A stretch of DNA of 64,000 nucleotides from Iphione sp. A-MEVVRFRX5. Taxonomy: Eukaryota. How positions within the stretch are numbered: position 1 is the first letter of the stretch; each line of letters starts with the position of its first letter. Under the pieces are notes generated by a model, which worked only from the letters and a program-made list of their open reading frames with translations, was not told the origin of the DNA and did not search any database. Of this stretch, positions 1 through 43,387 are shown in pieces. The position numbers were made by a program, and so were the translations under genes. The stretch is from positions 75,640,001 through 75,704,000 of the forward strand of contig OZ320319.1 in NCBI GenBank assembly GCA_976226885.1, written 5' to 3'.

Positions 1-2
1 CA

Positions 3-3000
3 GAGTGGGCAGCCCCAGCCTTTTTGGTGTCAAAAGGGGGGCCTGGTAAACACACTGGTTGGCGTTTGGTTGTTGACTATAGGGGTTTAAATACGGCCAC
101 CATAGACAGGTGCCTTAATATTCCCCGTATTGATGATACCCTTGATGCTATTGGTCAAGTGAAACCACAGTGGTTCTCTGCTTTAGACCTCGCTGCCTCC
201 TTCCATCAGTTGCCTATCAGGGAGGAGGACAGGGACAAAACTGCATTTTTAACACAAGATGGGGCATATAGGTACACTCGTTTACCTATGGGCCTACAGG
301 GATCACCTGCATCCCTACAATTGGCCATGGACAAACTTCTGTCAGACATTAGGTATAAGACATGTCTTGCCTATTTAGATGACATTATTGTCTTTTCCCC
401 CACTTTTGAACAACATCTAAAAGACCTAGAGGAGGTATTCAGGCGTCTACAGTCTGCAAATCTGAAACTAAAAGCCTCTAAGTGTCATGTTGGCTGTAAG
501 CAAATTAACTACCTAGGACATGTTCTTTCCCCTGAGGGAGTTGCCCCACAAAACGACAAGATTACAGCCATGACATCCCTTAAAACTCCTACCACTGTTA
601 AGGCAGTGAGACAGTTCCTGGGTATGGTAGGTTTCTATAGGAAATTTATCAGGAATTTTGCAGACATTGCTAGGCCCCTAACCCTCCTCCTAAAAGAAAA
701 GACAGAGTGGGTCTGGGGAGAAGACCAGCAAAAAGCCTACGACACCCTAATACAGGCTATCACCAGTTATGAGGTATTGATCTACCCAGACTTCAATAAA
801 CCATTTGAGTTGAGCACTGATGCTAGTGATGTAGGCATGGGGGCAGTGCTCTCTCAAAAAGATGACAGGGATGTATTGAGACCAGTGGCCTATGCGGCTA
901 AAACTTTCATCCCTGCTGAATTAAACTACACCACTACTGAAAAAGAACTGTGTGCAGTGGTGTGGGCCTGTAATTATTTCAGGGTTTATTTAGAGGGAAG
1001 GAGATTCACCATCCATACTGATCACAATGCCCTGAAATGGATCCTGACAACAAAGTCAGTGACAGGCAGATTAGCTAGGTGGGCAGCCAAATTACAGGGT
1101 TTTACCTTTGATGTAAAACATGTAAAAGGTAAAGAAAATGTAGTCCCAGATGCTCTATCAAGGCTACAGAGTAGGGAGAAGCCAGAGGACGTTTCAGCAA
1201 TACAGAATATATTGGGGGGTCAGGGAGGAGTCTCTGACATACCAGACACTCCAGAGAAGGAGGAAACCCACCCCTCCACCCACCAAGGCTTCTCCCCTCA
1301 CTGTCCACCAAATAAGGGGCTACAAACTCCTTGGATACGACCTCAGAGCCCACACCCTGTCCAGTCTGAATACATTAATTCCTCTTCCCCAAATTCACCA
1401 CCAAAAATGGGCACCAAAGCTCAGATTCAGGATGAGTTGAGGCCTGACCAATACACTGATGTATGCAGGGCTGAGGGGAGAGATGGGGTTTGGGTTCCTA
1501 CCCCCTCCCCCACTCCACACCCCTCTCCTGGCCTCCCAGGCCTCCATGGAGCTCGTTTCTCTCACCCTGGTCACTACTCCTTGGCCCAGAGCCAAGAGAG
1601 AGGTCGGATGGCTGAAATAACCATCCCACCACCCATCAAACCACCCTCCCCACCAGCTGCCAACCCTGGTAGCCTCCCACCCAACCCACCCTGCCTTCCC
1701 ACCCAGTCAGGAGGCTCCCTGCCTACCTCCCCTACCAGAGGGGAGGGGGAGAATATAAGAGAGTTCTCTAATACACATGGTATAGGTGTTCACACTTTAC
1801 AGCAAAAACCACAAAACAAAAGGAGAAAAAGATATCTGACTCAAGCATCCCAATCTATCCCTGAATGTCTCAATGGATTAGGGTTGGATGTAGACCTTAT
1901 TAGAGGAGAACAAGAGAAAGACCCCTTTTGCTCAGAGATATTAAACTTCCTCAGACACTCTAAACTCCCTGATGATGAAGACAAGGCAAGAGCTATTGTC
2001 TTGAGAGAGATGGATTATTTCATTTCTGATGATCTCCTATATAGACTCAATACTCCGGGGGGAAAGAAATCTCAGGTAACTGCACAGTTAGTTATTCCCC
2101 ACAATCTTATCAAAACTGTCCTAAGTCTCCACCATGATACTACATATGCAGGTCACTTAGGTTCACAGAAAATGCTTTCTGTAATGCGTCCACGTTACTT
2201 TTGGCCAAAACTCGTAGAGGATGTACAACTCTACACAAAATCCTGTGATGTGTGTAATGCAAATAAAAGAATGACACACACCATCAAACCACCGCTCACT
2301 CTCAGGGAGCCAGCCCCTGCTCCCTTTGCAGTGGTCAATATGGATGCCATCGAGGACCTGCCCCCGACAGAACAGGGAAACAAACATATCATAACTATTG
2401 TGGACTTTTATTCCAGATACCTCATAGCGTTCCCTGTCCCAGATCTAAAAGCAGCGACCCTTGCTAAACACTTTTATGAACAAGTTATCTGCCGCTTCGG
2501 GGCAGTGCGTCGGATTGTTAGTGACAATGGATCGGCTTTTATCTCTGAGTTGTTCAAAGAACTTTGCGTACGATTTGGCATACAACAAACCTTTATCACT
2601 AGCCTACATCCATCCTCTTCAGGCCTAGTTGAAAGATTCAATAGATCCATTATCAACAGCCTGAAAAACTATGTCCAGGAAAATCAGACAGACTGGGACA
2701 AGTTTCTCCCCTCTGTCTGCTATGCACTGAATATGTCGGATGCATATTCAACTGGACATAGCCCACATCTCCTCGTTCATGGGTACAACCCACCAACCCC
2801 ACCAGAGTCTAACCTTGATGATCCATTCAATGACCCTAAAAATGTACAACAAATCTTTGCAGATATCCTACAGGCACAACATGCAGCTGACAAGGTAGCA
2901 AAAGAACACCTTGCCATGACTCAGGACAAAATGAAGGAAAGGTATGATAAGACAGCATATATGCCAGACCTAAAACCTGGTGATATTGTTTGGTTGTTTT

Positions 3001-4148
3001 GGCCTAGAATTGCTCTTCCCAAAACTAGACTTAAACTTTCCAAAGTTTACCATGGACCTTTCCTTTTTGTCAGATTTCAATCTCCCTCTACTTGTTTCAT
3101 TAAGAGACTCTCTGACAATAAGTTTCTGGATAAACCTGTGGCAGTGGCTAGGTTAAAGAAGGGTTTGTTAAGAGAGGACATCACTCACTGGGATCCTATT
3201 ATTGGTGATATAGAGGACCCAATTGAATTGGATGAAGGTGACTTACCAAATGACAGTTTTGAGATGAGTGAACAGGATAGATCTGTCTCCAATCCAGACC
3301 CTGTCCTAGTCACTGTACATGAATCTACAGAGAAGAGAGACCAACCAACCCCTACCACCCACCCTTCCACCCCTCCCACCCATCAACAGACCCCTACTAC
3401 TACTCCCACCACCCCCACTACTACTCCTGATGCTCCTACAACCTCTAGGACGTTTCCTGGAGTAGATATAACGCTCCCAGTGCTGCCACAAGCGTCCTAC
3501 ACCCTCCCCCAGTCTCCTAATCAGCTCCAGAGCTCCAGGACGGATTTAGAACCTGATCCTCCACTCCTACACACACTGGCAGGCACTCCAGGGGGAGGGG
3601 GAGCATTCCAGGACGAGTTCTATACACCACCACAGCTCCCACCACCTCACAGGAGGGGCAGAGACCTCTCAAGAGGGAGTAAAGACCCCCATCTACTTAT
3701 TGACTCACCCCCATCTCAATCTTCACCCCTCCCATCACACAGCTCTTCCCCCACACCACAGACACCACAGATACGTCCTCCTGGCCATGGTATACCTCCC
3801 ACCCACTCTGGAGGGGAGCAGAATCCCTCCCAGTCAGGGAGCAGTGAACTCTTCACCCCTACACCTCCCCAGCCTCCCCAGAGTGTACCAAACGAAGGTG
3901 ATAAGCTATCCTACCCTGCTGCAAGTAAAAGTTTAGGCCCAGACAAAGTTTATCATGAAGTAAAAGAAATGATAGACATGGGTAATGTGTCAGGTTTAGG
4001 AACAAGATTCAAACTTGTTTTTGCAGATGGAGATATTAGATGGGTAGCACCTGAGTGTCTAAATACCATGGCTAAACAAAAGTTTCTCACCTCTGAAATA
4101 CAGGAGGATTCTCTTAGAGAAGTTCCCCACACTAGATCTATGAGGTAA
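3..4148 (+). CDS. pol: Pol polyprotein (5'-partial): RT, RNase H, Pro-rich insert, integrase, Pro/Thr-rich linker, chromodomain-like C-terminus
   Basis: Frame open from base 3 (EWAAPAFLVSK...WRLVVDYRGLN). YLDD at 372-383; RNase H TDAS/KELCA/HTDH/PDAL; INT H-x6-H and CDVC; D (2343), D (2523), E (2631) with exact D-35-E spacing; GPF motif ~3054-3062. Confidence 0.97.
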   Translation, partial: EWAAPAFLVSKGGPGKHTGWRLVVDYRGLNTATIDRCLNIPRIDDTLDAIGQVKPQWFSALDLAASFHQLPIREEDRDKTAFLTQDGAYRYTRLPMGLQGSPASLQLAMDKLLSDIRYKTCLAYLDDIIVFSPTFEQHLKDLEEVFRRLQSANLKLKASKCHVGCKQINYLGHVLSPEGVAPQNDKITAMTSLKTPTTVKAVRQFLGMVGFYRKFIRNFADIARPLTLLLKEKTEWVWGEDQQKAYDTLIQAITSYEVLIYPDFNKPFELSTDASDVGMGAVLSQKDDRDVLRPVAYAAKTFIPAELNYTTTEKELCAVVWACNYFRVYLEGRRFTIHTDHNALKWILTTKSVTGRLARWAAKLQGFTFDVKHVKGKENVVPDALSRLQSREKPEDVSAIQNILGGQGGVSDIPDTPEKEETHPSTHQGFSPHCPPNKGLQTPWIRPQSPHPVQSEYINSSSPNSPPKMGTKAQIQDELRPDQYTDVCRAEGRDGVWVPTPSPTPHPSPGLPGLHGARFSHPGHYSLAQSQERGRMAEITIPPPIKPPSPPAANPGSLPPNPPCLPTQSGGSLPTSPTRGEGENIREFSNTHGIGVHTLQQKPQNKRRKRYLTQASQSIPECLNGLGLDVDLIRGEQEKDPFCSEILNFLRHSKLPDDEDKARAIVLREMDYFISDDLLYRLNTPGGKKSQVTAQLVIPHNLIKTVLSLHHDTTYAGHLGSQKMLSVMRPRYFWPKLVEDVQLYTKSCDVCNANKRMTHTIKPPLTLREPAPAPFAVVNMDAIEDLPPTEQGNKHIITIVDFYSRYLIAFPVPDLKAATLAKHFYEQVICRFGAVRRIVSDNGSAFISELFKELCVRFGIQQTFITSLHPSSSGLVERFNRSIINSLKNYVQENQTDWDKFLPSVCYALNMSDAYSTGHSPHLLVHGYNPPTPPESNLDDPFNDPKNVQQIFADILQAQHAADKVAKEHLAMTQDKMKERYDKTAYMPDLKPGDIVWLFWPRIALPKTRLKLSKVYHGPFLFVRFQSPSTCFIKRLSDNKFLDKPVAVARLKKGLLREDITHWDPIIGDIEDPIELDEGDLPNDSFEMSEQDRSVSNPDPVLVTVHESTEKRDQPTPTTHPSTPPTHQQTPTTTPTTPTTTPDAPTTSRTFPGVDITLPVLPQASYTLPQSPNQLQSSRTDLEPDPPLLHTLAGTPGGGGAFQDEFYTPPQLPPPHRRGRDLSRGSKDPHLLIDSPPSQSSPLPSHSSSPTPQTPQIRPPGHGIPPTHSGGEQNPSQSGSSELFTPTPPQPPQSVPNEGDKLSYPAASKSLGPDKVYHEVKEMIDMGNVSGLGTRFKLVFADGDIRWVAPECLNTMAKQKFLTSEIQEDSLREVPHTRSMR

Positions 4149-4369
4149 ATAACCTACACACATTGATTATTGGCTACATGTCCCAGGCCAGACAATATAC
4201 ATTAGTATTTTGTCTGTGTTGCTCTTGATTATGATTTGGCAAAGGTCATATAGAACACACTGTGATAACTACTGCAGTAGGACTTTGTTTTTTCTGTGAT
4301 ATGTCTGATCAGATAGAATGTACAGAACCCTTTTAGTTTAGTTTCACCTCTGTATATATGCCCAGAGAC

Positions 4370-4387
4370 TTTATTTTTTATAATAAA
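4370..4387. terminator. Back-to-back poly(A) signals: minus-strand AATAAA (4375-4370) and plus-strand AATAAA (4382-4387)
   Basis: TTTATTTTTTATAATAAA; the plus signal is followed by a GU/U-rich tract (cgtcttgttatgtatattt) and lies ~235 nt after the pol stop. Confidence 0.5.
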
Positions 4388-4857
4388 ACGTCTTGTTATG
4401 TATATTTCGGATCTCCCAACAAAAAAAAATCAGAACTGACAGAGACAGAGAAGTGCATACAGGCACAGGGTTTTCAGTTCCCCACATGATTTATCTTGCC
4501 ATTTCTGAAAATGGTTCAGTGGATTGGAGATAACAGTTACAGGAGAAAACTGTTATACGGTAAAAGACCATGGCAGACACTCCCCCTTGCCCAGGGAAGG
4601 AAGGGGATGACCGTAAAGGTTTAGCCCTAGCCCACAAGAAGAAGGGTAGGGATGATTCAGTTTCCCTCCTTAGGGAATGAATATACATGTTTGCGGAACA
4701 TGTCAATTGTATTTTAACTGATCGCTCTCGCACCGTATCAGGTAGACTTGAAAAATTTTGGCATGACCCCTATTTACAAAGAGGGGCTCTAAAGGATATG
4801 TAATGGTGGCCCGAGGGCCGGGTTTCTTTTGGGGGAGGAAAGGGAGAAGATGGCTCT

Positions 4858-5408
4858 TTATTGCGCATGAATATAGTCCATCCACATCTTGCCATACCAG
4901 CCACCCCATTCTATATCCATCTTTCGTGCCCGGTATAATTCCTTCATGAGAAGGAAGTATGCCTTGGCCCAGTACGGTAGGGCAGCACCCCTTATCCGGG
5001 CTAATGACTGTGATCCCATGTCTTTTAACATGGCATCAAAAGCCAGCCGCCCAAGGGGGCCCAATTGCTGGTAGGTATAGGTGTGGTAGGTTTTTGTCTT
5101 AAACAAGGCAGTCCTCTCCAATGCATGTATGTACTTGCATAGGAGACACCAACAGTTTGGTTGACAATCTCCATGAAAGATTTCATGTATCAACTCATCA
5201 CTGCGGGATTTAGTTAACTCCCCTGTAAAACAATACATTAGCAGGAACCAGTCATCAGAGTAAAAAGCTCCAGCCTTTTTGTATACTATGTCATCATCCC
5301 AGTGCTGGGAAACAGACATAAACTCTGCAATACTGTCTGCCATGTCTTTCCCTTCCCAACCTAGAGGTAGGAATGAGTGCATCCCAAACCTGGGATCCAA
5401 CCCTGCCT
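4858..5408 (-). CDS. Main (last) coding exon of an antisense accessory gene of unknown function with a Cys/His cluster
   Basis: Part of the 237-codon minus ORF 4858-5571; globular-looking sequence (HGDCQPNCWCLLCKYIH); acceptor ccctcctctcctctcAG at 5410-5409; strong-Kozak internal Met (GACATGG, MADSIAEF, 161 aa); AATAAA overlaps the TAA stop (4862-4857). Confidence 0.7.
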
Positions 5409-5681
5409 CTGAGAGGAGAGGAGGGAGCCCTAAAACCATACCCATATTTGTAAAGTGGGTTTCCTGACTTAATTTATGCTCAGTCCTTCCTCCTACACCT
5501 CGTTTCTGTTGCCATGGGCCCTCCTCATGGCCCTGGTATTGATGGCTTGACTTATATGGCCAGGTATCCACTCTCTGACCATCACCAGCCCTCCCACCCT
5601 CTCACCAGTGGTGGGGAGAGGCTAAAATCGTTGATATAGCCCCATAGAGCCAGAGAGCACCACCCCACACTCCATACTCAC

Positions 5682-5742
5682 TCTGGAGCAGTGGAAACGT
5701 CCTTGCAACTGCTATACACACAGCAGCAAAGGGGATATACTT
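5682..5742 (-). CDS. Predicted exon 2 of the antisense accessory gene (KYIPFAAVCIAVARTFPLLQ)
   Basis: Acceptor tctctctctctcttAG (5744-5743) and donor GTGAGT (5681); enters in phase 0 and leaves in phase 1, matching both neighbouring exons. Confidence 0.45.
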
Positions 5743-5875
5743 CTAAGAGAGAGAGAGACCACTGGAAAATATCACCAGACTGAATACTGGGTTGTCTCTC
5801 TGTGGTGAAACCTACTACACTTGACTGTGTTATACTGACTCCAACTTATCCTAAGGAACAGAAAGGATAACTCAC

Positions 5876-5917
5876 CTTAGAGAAGGAGTTTATCCAGACT
5901 ACAGTGATTATCACCAT
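5876..5917 (-). CDS. Predicted exon 1 of the antisense accessory gene (MVIITVVWINSFSK; in-frame upstream ATG at 5956 possible)
   Basis: gtcATGg Kozak context; 42 nt ending AAG|GTGAGT (donor at 5875), phase 0. Confidence 0.45.
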
Positions 5918-5936
5918 GACTGCTCTTTGGAGAACA
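5916..5936 (+). CDS. env: Predicted env leader micro-exon (MTALWRT)
   Basis: accATG, 7 codons, then perfect GTAAGT at 5937; 246-nt intron with CACTAAT branch (6149-6155) and tttcAG at 6181-6182; joins env in frame to give signal peptide MTALWRTVVPLLCFASFCRVIQG. Confidence 0.7.
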
Positions 5937-6173
5937 GTAAGTTTTAATAGACTCATTCACACCTCTTTTGAAAGGGAAGTTGTATTGAGTTACTTTTGCA
6001 TTGACTTTAGTCAAAACTTGTATCTTTTCCCTTGTTTTAAGGTTTTGTTCCTCCAATACATTTAAAAGGAGATAACTTTGTTGGCAGAGAAAAGGCCTCA
6101 CTGTTATCCATTTCGGCATTGAGGTTACTTATCTTTAGGGAGGAACATCACTAATTATGGGAATATTTTATGT

Positions 6174-9131
6174 ATGTTTCAGGTAGTGCCACTACTGTGC
6201 TTTGCCTCCTTCTGTAGGGTCATACAGGGGAATGGCCCAGTGGTGAGGCAGAATGTAGGAGTGGTATTCCACCCTACAAAGCATGTCCTCTTAGGGGGCC
6301 AGGAGTCCTATGATCTGGTCTTCAAGATCCACATCCCTAGGGGTCTTGATCATTCTGTTATCAATCCAGACACAGATTTATGTCTTAGGGTCTGGAAACA
6401 TAGATATGGGGGAATGGCTTCAGACCAGCCATCAGATTCAGGCCAAAATATTTCGAAACCAGACCAGACTCCTGACAATACCACCCACTGGCTACCTCCC
6501 TTCCAAAGTATTGACCCTGAAGTACTGGCAATAGCTGCTGAACGTGCGAAACTACCCCATCCGCCACCAACATATGAGGGTGACTTCTGCAACTCGATGA
6601 CACCACTCTTCTCTTCATTACGGAGCGTGCTCCACACTGCTCGACAACACTATAGAGAAGAGCGCAGAAGGCTTATGATGTTGCTGAGGACACCATCCCC
6701 TAACCCAGGAACGGTAACTCCAAGGGCACCTTTCGGTTTCATGGGCCAGTTTCACAGGGCTCTTTATGGCACTGCGACACTTGATGATATTAAGGTCGTA
6801 AATGAGAATATAAAAAGAGTAAAAGGTTATTCAGTCGCGGTTGCAAATTTCACTACAAGACTTAGAGATTATACTCTTCATTTTGTAAATATAACTAGAC
6901 ACAAATTCAATGAACTTGGTAGGGACATGGTACAACATGCAGTTTATATAAACAGGCTTGCACAAGCAGAGCAGGAACTTTCTGAGAAATTAACAAAAAC
7001 CTCCACTCAATTAGAGTCTAATAGGTGGTGGACTCTATATGCACTTTCTTATGTAGGTGCCAAGACTCTGGCTATTCAACAAATTCATAACTATATTAAC
7101 GCTTTGTCCCGTTTTAGGCATGGCCTAGAACAGGGAATGAAGGGATCCCTCACAACTGACTTAATCTCTAGAAAAGACCTAAGGAGTGGTTTAAACCAAT
7201 TGAGAGAAAGACTTGCGAAAGTTGACAGAACAGTGGTCCTTAAAGATGCAGCACTTTACTATAATAACTTTCTGGTCCAGGTAAGGTACAATAGTCGGTA
7301 TATCTATATACATATTTTGGTTCCAGTTGCTAAAACACCCTCTTTGTATGACATGTACCAGGTAAGCACTTTTCCAGTCCCTATTAATATTAAGGATCAT
7401 AAGGGATATACCCAAATTACTAACATCCCTGACATCCTTTTGGTAAATGATCAAACAGGCAACTATATTACCTTATCACACAAGGATCTCATCGGTTGTG
7501 AAATGGATCACTTCATCCTTTGCCCTTTCCCACTCCCTGTTAGGGAACCTACCATCCCTACTTGTATTATGGACATTTTTCTGGATAAAACTATTTCATC
7601 CGCACAATGCAATCACAAGCTCTATCCTTTTCAAGAATCTCCAGATGATATTATCCCTATCTCAGACTCAACATTCATTATTTCTTCCTTCCACCATAAC
7701 TACACCCTCACTTGCAATGACTCAGTCACTACCCATACAGCAAATGGTTTAGCTGTTGCGAAGGTGGGTTGCGATTGCGTCCTACGGATAGGAGGACAGA
7801 TGGTCACAGGAGGCCGTTTCACCTGCGACCGACGAATGCAGATTGAACTCCAGCATGCACTTAACCTTCCAGTCTTACAAGCTTTTAATATTCCTCTGCC
7901 AAATGCCACTCCATCTTTTACCTCAAACATCTCCTACAGTCTGAAACTTCCAAACATTTCTGCCTTCCTTCATGAAGAAAAACAAAAATATGGAGATTCC
8001 TTTACAGATGACCTGGACAAAATTTCAACACAAATGCAAAAGATTAAGGTCCCAAAGCCACCTGTCCTCATGCCATGGCAAGCCGACTCCTTTTCTGACT
8101 GGCTAAAATCCCCATTTGCTTTCTCTTTCATCAGTGGTTGGGGAGCATTTCAGCTTCTCATCTCTCTTGTTTCATTAGGTTTAGCTATCTGGACATTCAT
8201 CAAAATGAGACAGTTAAGGGCAGCTTTACTTTTAGCCACCGCTAGTAGAACTATGTACACCCTGGCTGACCCCATCCCTCAGGTAAACTTCAAAGACCTC
8301 TATCCAATTGCACCTACTATGCCCACTGACATAGACACTGTTGAAGAAAATGACCTTACCCGAGTGCTGGCAAACATGACCTATCTAGACCAGATCGTCT
8401 CGATAATTTTTGTTATTTTTCTAATCTGGATGTTGGCCAAATTATTTAAATCTTGTGCAAAACTGTGTTGTGGAGGCACAGAACAATGCCTCAGCCGTCT
8501 ATCTCCATTTGGTAAACCAAACCACCTTCCTTGGAATCGTTCCACTTTCGCGTCAAGTGGCATTGAGTTTTGGCTCAAATTTGGTTCAGCCCACAAATAC
8601 GAGACCATATATCTGACCACCATTTTCGAACGCCTTGAGGCTACACGTGTGCACTGTATGCCTAAGGTTAAGGTATGTGAAATTATTTGTGGATGCACCA
8701 CTTGTGATGTTATTTTAAACTATGACGGGTGTCTCCAGTTGTCACACCCACATAAGAAGGAGACCATAAATTTGCCTGCAACAGTGCGTATTCCAGCCTG
8801 CAGAGGCAAGGCAATCAAACGCCTTGGCTTAGACACTGTTGAGGCTTGCCTTATTTTACGTCAGGGTGATCTCTGTGCACAGGCTACGGCAGAGACAACT
8901 TGTGCGGCCACTGCCTTATCCCGCACAGCTGCCCGTGCCAGCATGAGAGACCCAACCCACAGGACATCCTCAACCCTACCTCGATCTGCGAGTGCAGAAT
9001 CAATTAACCCTTTCATTCAACCAGAAGAATTGAGCCGAGGTAGAAACCTCAACATGGAGGCCACCGCTCCATTAGTAAAGTTTAAGGACCCGCCTGGTTA
9101 TTCAGGCACATATAACAGCTCATTCGCTTAA
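6174..9131 (+). CDS. env: Envelope glycoprotein, class I fusion F-type (baculovirus F/errantivirus-like), with a C-terminal second-TM extension
   Basis: Signal peptide; R184 followed by fusion-peptide-like APFGFMGQFHRALYGTATLDDI; heptad region; Cys-rich segment; many N-x-S/T sequons; aromatic MPER and TM at ~aa657-677; second TM ~aa741-758; PPGY at aa973-976. Confidence 0.93.
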   Translation: MFQVVPLLCFASFCRVIQGNGPVVRQNVGVVFHPTKHVLLGGQESYDLVFKIHIPRGLDHSVINPDTDLCLRVWKHRYGGMASDQPSDSGQNISKPDQTPDNTTHWLPPFQSIDPEVLAIAAERAKLPHPPPTYEGDFCNSMTPLFSSLRSVLHTARQHYREERRRLMMLLRTPSPNPGTVTPRAPFGFMGQFHRALYGTATLDDIKVVNENIKRVKGYSVAVANFTTRLRDYTLHFVNITRHKFNELGRDMVQHAVYINRLAQAEQELSEKLTKTSTQLESNRWWTLYALSYVGAKTLAIQQIHNYINALSRFRHGLEQGMKGSLTTDLISRKDLRSGLNQLRERLAKVDRTVVLKDAALYYNNFLVQVRYNSRYIYIHILVPVAKTPSLYDMYQVSTFPVPINIKDHKGYTQITNIPDILLVNDQTGNYITLSHKDLIGCEMDHFILCPFPLPVREPTIPTCIMDIFLDKTISSAQCNHKLYPFQESPDDIIPISDSTFIISSFHHNYTLTCNDSVTTHTANGLAVAKVGCDCVLRIGGQMVTGGRFTCDRRMQIELQHALNLPVLQAFNIPLPNATPSFTSNISYSLKLPNISAFLHEEKQKYGDSFTDDLDKISTQMQKIKVPKPPVLMPWQADSFSDWLKSPFAFSFISGWGAFQLLISLVSLGLAIWTFIKMRQLRAALLLATASRTMYTLADPIPQVNFKDLYPIAPTMPTDIDTVEENDLTRVLANMTYLDQIVSIIFVIFLIWMLAKLFKSCAKLCCGGTEQCLSRLSPFGKPNHLPWNRSTFASSGIEFWLKFGSAHKYETIYLTTIFERLEATRVHCMPKVKVCEIICGCTTCDVILNYDGCLQLSHPHKKETINLPATVRIPACRGKAIKRLGLDTVEACLILRQGDLCAQATAETTCAATALSRTAARASMRDPTHRTSSTLPRSASAESINPFIQPEELSRGRNLNMEATAPLVKFKDPPGYSGTYNSSFA

Positions 9132-9846: not shown

Positions 9847-9860
9847 AGAGAGGAGGTGAG
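9847..9860 (+). other. Polypurine tract (PPT)
   Basis: AGAGAGGAGGTGAG immediately 5' of TGTTAAC. Confidence 0.75.
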
Positions 9861-10660
9861 TGTTAACATATTAATGTACTCAATATTGTGAATCCTACAC
9901 TGTCTCAATTGTGGGATATGTTTTTAACCTTATCTACCATTAACTCTGTATTATCTTAATGTTTCACTCAGGTTTTAACCCTTTGCATGGCTTGCAGGCT
10001 CTATAGCCACAAGACTTCGATTTGGAGTGTATTTCTGGGTAGTATAGAGTAGGTAGGTTAGGGTTCAGGCGAGGAGGGAGCATCTGAGTAAATATAGCCC
10101 TTGCCAGAGGGGAGGGGGCTCTGCCCCATCCAGCTCAGGCAGGCAGAGGGCTAGCGCTGGGAGTTGCTCCCTGGGCACTGGCCAGTACAGTACTACCTTC
10201 AAAATCGACCTGGATACTCCCTCATCTCCTGTATTAATTGTGGTGAATCAGAGTTGTTCCTATTCCATCTCACATCTATGTAACTGTGTGCATTGTTGAG
10301 ATGGAATATACACCTTACAGCGGATCCCTGTTGTTGTCTTATTGGATTTAATACACCAGGAACACACACACACACACTACCATACATACAGACATTGCTC
10401 CCCACATATAACCCTGCAAAGGAGTTATACCGGACGTTCTATTATCCACAAAGGAACAAGTGTGTATCTACCAAACCCCACACAAGGGTTTGGACTCCTG
10501 GAGACATTTCCACCAGACACTCTTTCACAACTGTGAGCTGTTTTGTGATGCTCATGTAGCAGTGTGTCGAGCAAGAGGAAAGCACGGTCTGACAACAAGT
10601 TCACACAAGCGTCCAACTGACAGGAGCAAATCGTGACCTTTTAGGACTTTCCCCGTAACA
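9861..10660 (+). repeat. 3' LTR (~800 bp; end could be 10668)
   Basis: Begins TGTTA right after the PPT and ends GTAACA (TGTTA/TAACA inverted termini); TATA-like TAAATATA at 10089-10096; a second GTAACA ends at 10668; the 5' LTR is not available for confirmation. Confidence 0.7.
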
Positions 10661-10942
10661 GTGTAACATGTAGAAGTAATGAAGCTCTTTACTTTCGCCG
10701 TTTCGTTTCTCATCTCTGGGAACTAGACGCATCCCGGCCATCTTTACTTCATTAATGCTGTGGGACTTTCAATCGACCCTGGTTTTCCGGACAAGCACGT
10801 CCTGCTTTGAAATCACCAGTTCGGACAGGGGGGGGGGGCGTAAAGGTGATAACTAAACCTGAAGCTTTGAGCCAGCAGAGGGAGGAGCCCCCACACGCGA
10901 TTTCAGAGAGATATTCCCAGATAGCTGTGACATGTACCACCG

Positions 10943-10985: not shown

Positions 10986-11640
10986 TGGGCACTCGGTGGC
11001 GCTGCCCTGAAGCTGGACGGGGAAGCTGGGGCCCTGTGGTTTAAAACCGTCTGCGGCACCTGTCCTCCTCGACAATCCCTAGATGGATGGCGACGTTGAT
11101 GGGTGATAATAAGGCAGGTTTGTCAACGTTCTTGACCCCCCGAGGAGGTGCATGACAAGGACTTTTCCTACTACGGCTACTACCACGAAACTTTGCCTCT
11201 CACACGCAGTGTAGATTGAGAGTACACCGAGTGGATATTGGCCAAGTCCGTCTGCTTATGAGAACCGCAACGGCAATTGAATTGGCCAAGGACGTAGCAT
11301 GTTAAAGAAGCCTTCGAAATCAGATGTTTAGGATTTAAATCAGGAAGCGACATCATCGGTGCCATTAAATGTGGCCTGGGGGGAAAGCCCTTTAACACGT
11401 CTGGAGAAAGAGGAACACAAGCACATTTAAGATAGTTTTGGAATACATATTCAAAGGACAGTGAATTTGTTAAAACGCCACTTATCTAGCTAGGGAATGT
11501 GACAAGAGTCCATCATGGGCTAACTTCTACGATTCAGGAACATAAAAGATTTATTGAACACAGTTCTCTACTTCGGACATTGAACACTTTTTGAACATTT
11601 GCTATTTCATTCGAGGAGAAAAGAAAAATTAGGTCTCGGA

Positions 11641-11770
11641 ATGCAACCTATTGGGCCTGACGAGGCTGACATGCCGGACTGGCTCCAGCGGATCCGGAAG
11701 TCACGCCATCTTGTTCTGTTTATTGTGTTCCTCGGACTTCTATTGGACAACATTCTTTTGACAGTGGTCG
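11641..11770 (+). CDS. VMAT: SLC18A vesicular amine transporter, coding exon 1 (start could be 11671)
   Basis: [43 protein letters not shown]; TM1 Asp retained; donor G|GTAGGT, phase 1. Confidence 0.93.
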
Positions 11771-42900: not shown

Positions 42901-43026
42901 ATAAATACAAACTAATACTTATCTCATGCGATGTTTCCCCACATATGTTGAAGCAGTCAGTTGCCTTGTTGGATCGTACCCTACTGAGATCATACGATTT
43001 CTTTTTCTTTCCTTTCCATGCTCCAG

Positions 43027-43387
43027 TGCCTATCATACCTGACTATCTCATCAGCCTGGAGGACCAACTTCTGGACCCTGGAGGGACGGAGGGAGGCCCC
43101 GGCGGGGGCGCGCTCTTCCCGGGTGGAGTCCCAGGCCTGAGCGGGGGATCTGACGGGGGCAACCTCTTCCACTACTTTCTGAACCACTCCGACTTCAACC
43201 TCACCTTCTTCAGTCAGTTGCTATACAACTTCTCCGACCCGGCCAACTGGACGGACGAAGCCCCTGGAGGGTGGGCGGTCCTCCCGCAACAGACCATCAA
43301 TGAAAACTCCCGCATTGGCTGGCTCTTCTCCAGTAAGGCCATCGTGCAGCTGGTGGCTAACCCCTTCATTGGACCCCTCACCAACAG
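43027..43387 (+). CDS. VMAT: VMAT-like coding exon 2 (luminal loop 1 and TM2)
   Basis: ctccAG|; (V)PIIPDYL...Gly-rich loop with sequons NHS, NLT, NFS, NWT...NENSRIGWLFSSKAIVQLVANPFIGPLTN(R); donor AG|GCGAGT. Confidence 0.95.

What the first reader, a model, noticed from the sequence alone, without database searches (positions are those of the whole stretch)
8142..9131. Env continues past its anchor into a probable second membrane protein with a late-domain motif
Seen: after TM1 (aa657-677) come RQLR, a signal-like stretch AALLLATASRTMYTLA, an ~40-aa segment with an NMT sequon, TM2 (IVSIIFVIFLIWMLAKLF), a Cys cluster (SCAKLCC), an ~150-aa beta-rich-looking domain and a tail ending KDPPGYSGTYNSSFA. 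Known: PPxY recruits Nedd4-family ligases for viral budding and normally sits in Gag or matrix proteins. Typical F proteins have one TM and a short tail. Inference: signal peptidase releases a separate matrix- or M-like membrane protein from the Env precursor.
Basis: partly seen in the sequence, partly recalled or inferred. Interest (0 to 1): 0.7.

Follow-up and report, generated by a model that had tools for sequence, protein, structure and literature searches.

The report
Matrix protein hidden in retrotransposon envelope
The envelope gene of this animal retrotransposon appears to encode a second, membrane-anchored protein shaped like the matrix proteins of Ebola, measles and Borna viruses, which may be how such elements bud out of cells.

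Summary
The 985-aa ORF (6174-9131) is the F-type env of a Ty3/gypsy element in an animal genome.

- Architecture: of the query plus its 150 best relatives (20-31% identity), 118 have a second transmembrane helix; most of the rest end early.
- Processing: between the helices lies a signal-peptide pattern, with the (-3,-1) rule met in 103 of 112.
- Late domains: PPxY itself is poorly conserved, but family tails are enriched for P[TS]AP (15 of 112 vs 0.8 expected) and YPx[LI] (17 vs 1.6).

Best reading: signal peptidase releases a membrane-anchored VP40/M-fold matrix protein that recruits ESCRT for budding. Cleavage, assembly and budding are inferred, not shown. Ten literature searches found no report of it.

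The parts
3..4148 (+). pol of a Ty3/gypsy element, open from the window edge: RT, RNase H, Pro/Ser-rich insert, integrase with H2C2 zinc finger, long C-terminal extension
   Evidence: RVT_1, RT_RNaseH, Integrase_H2C2, rve above Pfam cut-offs
4858..5445 (-). antisense ORF, 195 aa, between pol and env; role unknown
   Evidence: no Pfam, no homologue, Atlas lead only
6174..9131 (+). env ORF, 985 aa, uninterrupted; proposed F + matrix polyprotein
6174..8144 (+). N-terminal signal and F-type (class I) ectodomain, aa 1-657; fusion-peptide-like stretch from aa 185 (6726)
   Evidence: 8 of 12 aligned members hit Baculo_F, the query itself does not; family profile hits a solved 'fusion protein' 9W4D at E 8.5e-18
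8145..8201 (+). TM1, anchor of F (aa 658-676)
8202..8267 (+). internal signal peptide (aa 677-698): basic n-region, short h-region, small residues at -3/-1; site A698 by alignment, A690 or T693 possible
   Evidence: cleavage inferred
8268..8390 (+). short acidic, Pro/Thr-rich segment (aa 699-739), inferred lumenal N-terminus of the second protein
   Evidence: net charge -6; family median -2; pLDDT ~60, but this part was misaligned in the alignment used
8391..8447 (+). TM2 (aa 740-758), N-out/C-in by charge
8448..8561 (+). basic, Cys-containing membrane-proximal linker (aa 759-796); acylation possible, untested
   Evidence: net charge >0 in 97% of 112; Cys 5.6% vs 1.9% further downstream
8562..8888 (+). 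beta-rich domain of the Mononegavirales matrix (BDV-M / VP40 / paramyxovirus M) fold, aa 797-905
8889..9131 (+). variable tail (aa 906-985) with PPGY at 9090-9101
9847..9860 (+). candidate polypurine tract
9861..10668 (+). candidate 3' LTR (808 bp, TG...CA, short inverted ends); no second copy in the window to confirm it

Best explanation
The env ORF is a two-protein precursor. F is threaded into the ER and stops at TM1. The basic-then-hydrophobic stretch right after TM1 acts as an internal signal peptide that restarts translocation, and signal peptidase cuts after it. This frees a ~290-aa (about 32 kDa) type I membrane protein: short lumenal stub, TM2, basic Cys-containing linker, a single matrix-fold domain of the Borna M / VP40 / paramyxovirus M kind, and a tail with ESCRT late-domain motifs (PPxY here; P[TS]AP or YPx[LI] in many relatives). 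That protein most likely lines the inner face of the membrane beside F, gathers the Gag core and recruits Nedd4/Tsg101/ALIX for budding. Shown: the sequence pattern, its conservation, the predicted fold and its nearest structures, and the motif enrichment. Inferred: topology, cleavage (about 0.8), homology to matrix proteins (about 0.8), lattice formation, Gag contact and budding (about 0.65 given the rest).
Confidence: 0.62

Rival explanations
1. No cleavage: Env is one three-pass protein (TM1, uncleaved signal-anchor, TM2) whose long cytosolic tail carries the matrix-fold domain, so matrix stays fused to F.
For: The charge data need a third crossing but not a cut. The query's site is atypical. 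The function could be much the same.
Against: The middle hydrophobic stretch is short (best 8-residue window median 2.3; 19-residue mean only 0.88 in the query). The -3/-1 columns are conserved in 103 of 112 proteins at ~19% identity, which an uncleaved anchor would not need.
Confidence: 0.12
2. The second protein is released as proposed but is an accessory membrane protein (trafficking chaperone for F, host-protein antagonist or ubiquitin-ligase adaptor) and not the budding matrix; the fold is an inherited relic or a weak analogy.
For: Low Z and E-values. Three quarters of tails lack a recognised late motif. Nedd4- and Tsg101-binding motifs also serve endosomal sorting of membrane proteins (recalled).
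Against: Matrix proteins from four virus families fill ranks 1-8. All three late-domain classes occur, often in tandem as in PSAP-x-YPx[LI], the interchangeable pattern described for budding proteins (PMC7995964, passages).
Confidence: 0.2
3. TM1 and TM2 form a simple hairpin with a cytosolic loop, so the beta-domain is lumenal or extracellular (a second ectodomain such as an attachment module).
For: Only two stretches pass a 19-residue hydropathy threshold. The query's domain has seven Cys. N-sequons in the loop are not enriched.
Against: Positive-inside bias puts TM2's C-side in the cytosol. The loop is acidic and Pro/Thr-rich. The domain's Cys positions are not conserved. Late motifs and a matrix fold make sense only in the cytosol.
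Confidence: 0.04
4. The second protein is a coronavirus M/ORF3a-like membrane protein.
Against: One helix, not three. The match lies among unrelated chains, well below the eight Mononegavirales matrix hits.
Confidence: 0.02

Closest known systems
F-type env-carrying Ty3/gypsy elements ('ancient errantiviruses', Chary & Hayashi, PMC13524379)
   Same: Ty3-type RT-RH-IN pol followed by an F-type env with fusion peptide and conserved cysteines; found in molluscs and other invertebrates (two named relatives here are from Pinctada and Littorina).
   Different: That paper analysed only ectodomains between signal peptide and a transmembrane domain; 'matrix', 'late domain', 'ESCRT', 'budding' and 'cytoplasmic' do not occur in its main text. 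The second helix, internal signal and matrix-fold domain are not described in the parts I read; its figures could not be seen.
Mononegavirales matrix proteins (Borna M, filovirus VP40, paramyxo-/pneumovirus M)
   Same: Best structural matches over 86-106 of 117 residues; basic character; late motifs in a flexible tail. These proteins line the envelope and drive budding (PMC4147685, section 2.2).
   Different: They are soluble proteins from their own gene that bind membranes peripherally. Here the fold is one domain, follows a transmembrane helix, is made from the glycoprotein precursor and is in a reverse-transcribing element.
Long glycoproteins of Aliusviridae (Jingchuvirales)
   Same: They are the top BFVD matches to the domain (probability 0.77-0.97; family). 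Viro3D lists Aliusviridae among class I fusion proteins mostly over 1,100 aa (PMC12583693, passages).
   Different: RNA viruses, not retroelements. E-values are 0.002-0.4, and the tool gives no target range, so that the match lies at their C-terminus is inferred.
Lokiretroviruses (PMC7947760)
   Same: Env related to Mononegavirales-type F in LTR elements.
   Different: They have a tether plus a second RNase H and a single-TM Env model. Here Pfam finds one Ty3-type RNase H followed by a low-complexity insert.
Signal-peptidase-processed envelope polyproteins of flavi-, alpha- and bunyaviruses (recalled)
   Same: Anchor helix, short basic loop, then a signal for the next protein.
   Different: There the released protein is another glycoprotein or a small membrane peptide, not a matrix-fold protein behind a class I fusogen.

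Membership tests
Env-carrying Ty3/gypsy (errantivirus, operational sense) | Ty3/gypsy pol with RT-RNase H-integrase order | tested here: met
   Pfam; no RT tree was built
Env-carrying Ty3/gypsy (errantivirus, operational sense) | F-type env downstream of pol | tested here: met
   Baculo_F in 8 of 12 aligned members but not in the query alone; profile hit to 9W4D at E 8.5e-18; the ectodomain was not folded
Env-carrying Ty3/gypsy (errantivirus, operational sense) | gag ORF and paired LTRs | tested here: inconclusive
   window begins inside pol; one candidate 3' LTR with PPT; no genome held
Env-carrying Ty3/gypsy (errantivirus, operational sense) | furin-type site before the fusion peptide | tested here: not met
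   absent in this copy, present in 76 of 103 relatives; affects this copy's fusion competence, not the family assignment
Lokiretrovirus | tether domain plus second RNase H in pol | tested here: not met
   one Ty3-type RNase H, then a Pro/Ser-rich insert with no Pfam match at E <= 1
Mononegavirales matrix protein | BDV-M/VP40 beta-sandwich fold | tested here: met
Mononegavirales matrix protein | detectable sequence similarity to M/VP40 | tested here: inconclusive
   no matrix hit in Pfam or among PDB sequences shown; 6-11% identity in structure alignments
Mononegavirales matrix protein | soluble product of a separate M gene | tested here: not met
   in frame with env and behind a transmembrane helix in 112 proteins; so it works like M but is not filed as a canonical M
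Mononegavirales matrix protein | self-assembly into dimers/tetramers and lattices | not tested
Mononegavirales matrix protein | drives particle budding | not testable with these tools
   needs expression experiments
Cleaved internal signal peptide | basic n-region, short h-region, small residues at -3/-1 | tested here: met
   by my own pattern counts, not SignalP
ESCRT late domain | PPxY, P[TS]AP or YPxnL in a cytosolic flexible region, above chance | tested here: met
   at family level, 28 of 112 vs 3.4 expected for the predefined set; for the query's single PPGY chance cannot be excluded

The most novel reading that the evidence does not exclude
A widespread, old lineage of animal LTR retrotransposons carries not just a fusogen but a whole negative-strand-virus-type 'F + M' envelope module: a signal-peptidase-cut precursor giving a class I fusion protein and a transmembrane VP40/M-fold matrix with ESCRT motifs. 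Budding is then run from env and not from Gag. The same fused module sits at the end of aliusvirus glycoproteins and supplies the matrix those viruses seem to lack (that lack is recalled, not checked). A membrane-anchored, glycoprotein-linked form may be ancestral to the free M/VP40 of Mononegavirales.
Probability: 0.4. Interest if true: 0.92.

Novelty: new variant of a known kind. Interest (0 to 1): 0.8.

Why it matters
How env-carrying Ty3/gypsy elements outside Drosophila become enveloped and leave cells is open; the recent survey calls their transmission mechanism elusive (PMC13524379, discussion). A matrix protein with late domains inside env gives a testable answer. It would also be, as far as my searches reach, the first M/VP40-fold protein in a reverse-transcribing element and the first with its own membrane anchor. 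It links retrotransposon env to Monjiviricetes by two genes instead of one, which bears on where both F and M came from, and it predicts an unannotated matrix at the end of long jingchuvirus glycoproteins.

Tried and rejected
Sequence searches with no result:
- Word-index searches: none for the whole env or the antisense ORF; a relative's C-terminal region found only 3 close F-type envs. Lengths 'shorter' and 'longer' were not searched, so stand-alone or otherwise fused forms of the domain are not excluded.
- Related loci: none in viral contigs or metagenome contigs, so the genomic context of the relatives is unknown.
- No whole genome held; no sequencing run was listed; no phage match; no earlier scan findings.

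Structure:
- ESM Atlas on aa 690-985 gave only leads below 0.9 (arthropod hypothetical proteins, some with Monjiviricetes_fusion or Baculo_F on 13-28% of members).
- Foldseek against PDB gave nothing at E <= 0.001.
- Alignment A2 put the fragment on the ectodomain and was discarded. A3 and A4 agree with my own fragment alignment over the domain (median 0.94 and 0.89), but the first ~30 query residues of A3 and the first and last few of A4 are misplaced.
- The pol C-terminal tail gave no PDB-sequence hit; chromodomain unproven.

Rejected readings: chance read-through of one copy (family-wide); NMT glycosylation as evidence; PPxY conservation as such; lokiretrovirus.

Rows set aside before counts: of 151 proteins, 33 lacked a TM pair. 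Of these 24 had no TM1 call: 22 end before or near it or were unclear, and 2 (P0060, P0092) do carry the domain. The other 9 had one helix: 6 keep a signal-like stretch and then end, 3 lack it. Six of the 118 with tails under 100 aa were left out of the 112. The 631 weaker hits were not seen.

Full report
CONTEXT. The window opens inside the pol gene of a Ty3/gypsy element (RT, one RNase H, H2C2 zinc finger, integrase). A 195-aa antisense ORF follows, then an uninterrupted 985-aa ORF at 6174-9131, and a candidate polypurine tract and 808-bp 3' LTR at 9847-10668. The flank holds exons of an SLC18-like transporter (motifs recalled), so the host is an animal. No genome is held, gag lies outside the window, and no second copy was found.

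THE OBSERVATION. The two most hydrophobic 19-residue windows are aa 740-758 (2.38) and 658-676 (2.04). The ORF is an F-type env: the query alone has no Pfam match, but 8 of 12 aligned members match Baculo_F. A 91-sequence profile hits a solved 'fusion protein' (9W4D, source not named by the tool) at E 8.5e-18 over profile positions 25-447. I did not fold the ectodomain.

IT IS A FAMILY TRAIT. phmmer found 781 relatives and listed 150, at 20-31% identity. Of these plus the query (151), 118 have a second helix 45-121 residues after TM1, and 112 of those have at least 100 residues after TM2. Of the other 33, 24 had no TM1 call; most end before it, and two (P0060, P0092) do carry the C-terminal domain. 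Nine have one helix: six keep a signal-like stretch and then end, three (P0128, P0033, P0053) lack it. All counts of 118 and 112 include the query. A profile of the domain built without the query and its three closest relatives finds the query at 31 bits (E 1.4e-5 for 10^6 sequences) and two of the three, but not P0004. In 167 pairs chosen for ectodomain identity >=33% (median 36%), the domain keeps 28% and the signal stretch 30%, against 19-21% for the helices, lumenal stub and tail and 12% for the linker (the pairs are not independent). Two named relatives come from mollusc genomes; the genomic context of the rest could not be fetched.

TOPOLOGY AND PROCESSING. Basic residues follow both helices (mean K+R in 12 residues 2.26 and 2.74; before them 0.48 and 0.57) and acidic residues precede them (1.36, 1.81). 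By the positive-inside rule (established knowledge) both run N-out/C-in, which needs a third crossing between them. The stretch after TM1 fits a signal peptide: K/R at its start, a short hydrophobic core, then [AVST]xA 13-24 residues on in 84 of 118. Shuffles of the first 28 residues give 44+/-5 (max 59 of 500), and the same position after TM2 gives 12 of 116 (window chosen after viewing). In the alignment, A698 falls in a column that is A/S/G in 105 of 112, T696 in an A/T/V/S column, and the (-3,-1) rule holds in 103 of 112. In this copy Leu at -2 is unusual, and the 12-sequence alignment would also allow a cut after A690 or T693, so the product is 287-295 aa, about 32 kDa. The NMT sequon adds nothing (27 of 118 vs 28.8 shuffled). 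These are my own pattern counts; no SignalP or DeepTMHMM was available, and cleavage is inferred.

LATE DOMAINS. PPxY is not a conserved feature: 6 of 112 post-domain tails including the query vs 1.8 expected (9 of 1000 shuffles reach it), and 9 vs 3.9 over the whole region after TM2. The query also has a PPxY in its ectodomain. The other two classes are strongly enriched: P[TS]AP 15 vs 0.8 and YPx[LI] 17 vs 1.6, with 0 of 1000 shuffles reaching either. PSAP occurs 11 times against at most 2 for any of its anagrams, and PTAP 5 against at most 1. P[TS]AP is absent from all 112 ectodomains. Carriers share a median 19% identity and are spread over the tree (14 changes for 17 carriers vs 16.1 shuffled; YPxL is more clustered, 11 vs 14.3). 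Several tails pair PSAP with YPx[LI]. Late domains are known to be position-independent, interchangeable and often combined (PMC7995964, passages). Still, only 28 of 112 tails carry a predefined motif, many tails are short, and P0003 and P0005 have none.

MECHANISM. Most likely, signal peptidase splits Env into F, left with a helix-plus-signal anchor, and a type I membrane protein whose cytosolic part is a matrix domain with a late-domain tail. By analogy with paramyxovirus and filovirus M (PMC4147685, section 2.2) it would line the membrane, hold F and the core together and recruit ESCRT. This copy has only a single basic residue before its fusion peptide, where 76 of 103 relatives have a furin-type motif, so its own fusion activity is uncertain. 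Rivals are an uncleaved three-pass protein (0.12), a non-matrix accessory role (0.2), a lumenal domain (0.04) and a coronavirus-M-like protein (0.02).

COMPARISON AND NOVELTY. The element fits the operational 'errantivirus' group of PMC13524379. I read its abstract, the first parts of sections 5, 6 and 9, all of section 8, passages, and searched its text supplements; its figures were not visible and could show a second helix. Its main text never uses 'matrix', 'late domain', 'ESCRT', 'budding' or 'cytoplasmic'. The element is not a lokiretrovirus (PMC7947760, first of four parts read). The domain works like Mononegavirales M but is not filed as a canonical M, since it is membrane-anchored and in frame with env. 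Carboviruses place G before M as separate ORFs (PMC5834213, passages), a precedent for the gene order. Ten searches of the open library and passages of PMC5408684, PMC12440569, PMC4402516, PMC12583693, bioRxiv 2024.12.15.628590, 2026.08.30.748148 and 2024.11.25.625296 showed no report of a matrix domain in a retrotransposon env or a jingchuvirus glycoprotein. Subscription journals and preprint supplements were not covered.

VERDICT. [quoted passage not shown] Confidence in the full mechanism 0.62; interest 0.8.

Noticed in passing
window 5445-4858 (-): 195-aa antisense ORF (247 aa stop to stop) between pol and env. No Pfam or sequence relative; the Atlas top hit is class I tRNA synthetase fragments at 0.87 with only 115 of 256 shared features, a lead only.
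   Followed up: partly
window 6158-6217: Splice-acceptor-like sites at 6182 (nine bases into the env ORF) and 6217, also 6010. The real Env N-terminus may come from a spliced leader; the N-terminal signal as annotated is weak (hydropathy 1.45).
   Followed up: no
window ~1170-1900 and ~3200-4148: pol carries a long Pro/Ser-rich insert between RNase H and integrase and a Pro/Thr-rich stretch after integrase, ending in a ~65-aa ordered-looking tail with no Pfam or PDB-sequence hit.
   Followed up: partly
window ~11640-11770, ~43020-43380, ~60280, ~61110 (+): Exons of a host vesicular monoamine transporter-like (SLC18) gene, identified by recalled motifs; the first begins about 1 kb after the candidate 3' LTR.
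   Followed up: partly
window 1-9131: CpG observed/expected rises along the element: 0.17 in pol, 0.34 in the F part of env, 0.51 in the matrix part, 0.66 in flanking DNA.
   Followed up: no
BFVD rows (A0A7U3NUW5, 730 aa; A0A1L3KMP0, 739 aa): Shorter chu-like glycoproteins, one from Chuviridae, also match TM2 plus domain weakly (probability 0.63, 0.57). The module may also follow class III glycoproteins.
   Followed up: no
BFVD rows (A0A1L3KMT1, A0A8K1XFG5, A0A8E8FUE9): Unannotated 131-136-aa proteins of Hubei rhabdo-like virus 3 and two lispi-/arliviruses match the domain weakly (probability 0.16-0.38) and may be unrecognised matrix proteins.
   Followed up: no
P0128: A 1,029-aa relative with an N-terminal extension of ~500 aa, a single helix and no matrix domain: a member without the module.
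   Followed up: partly
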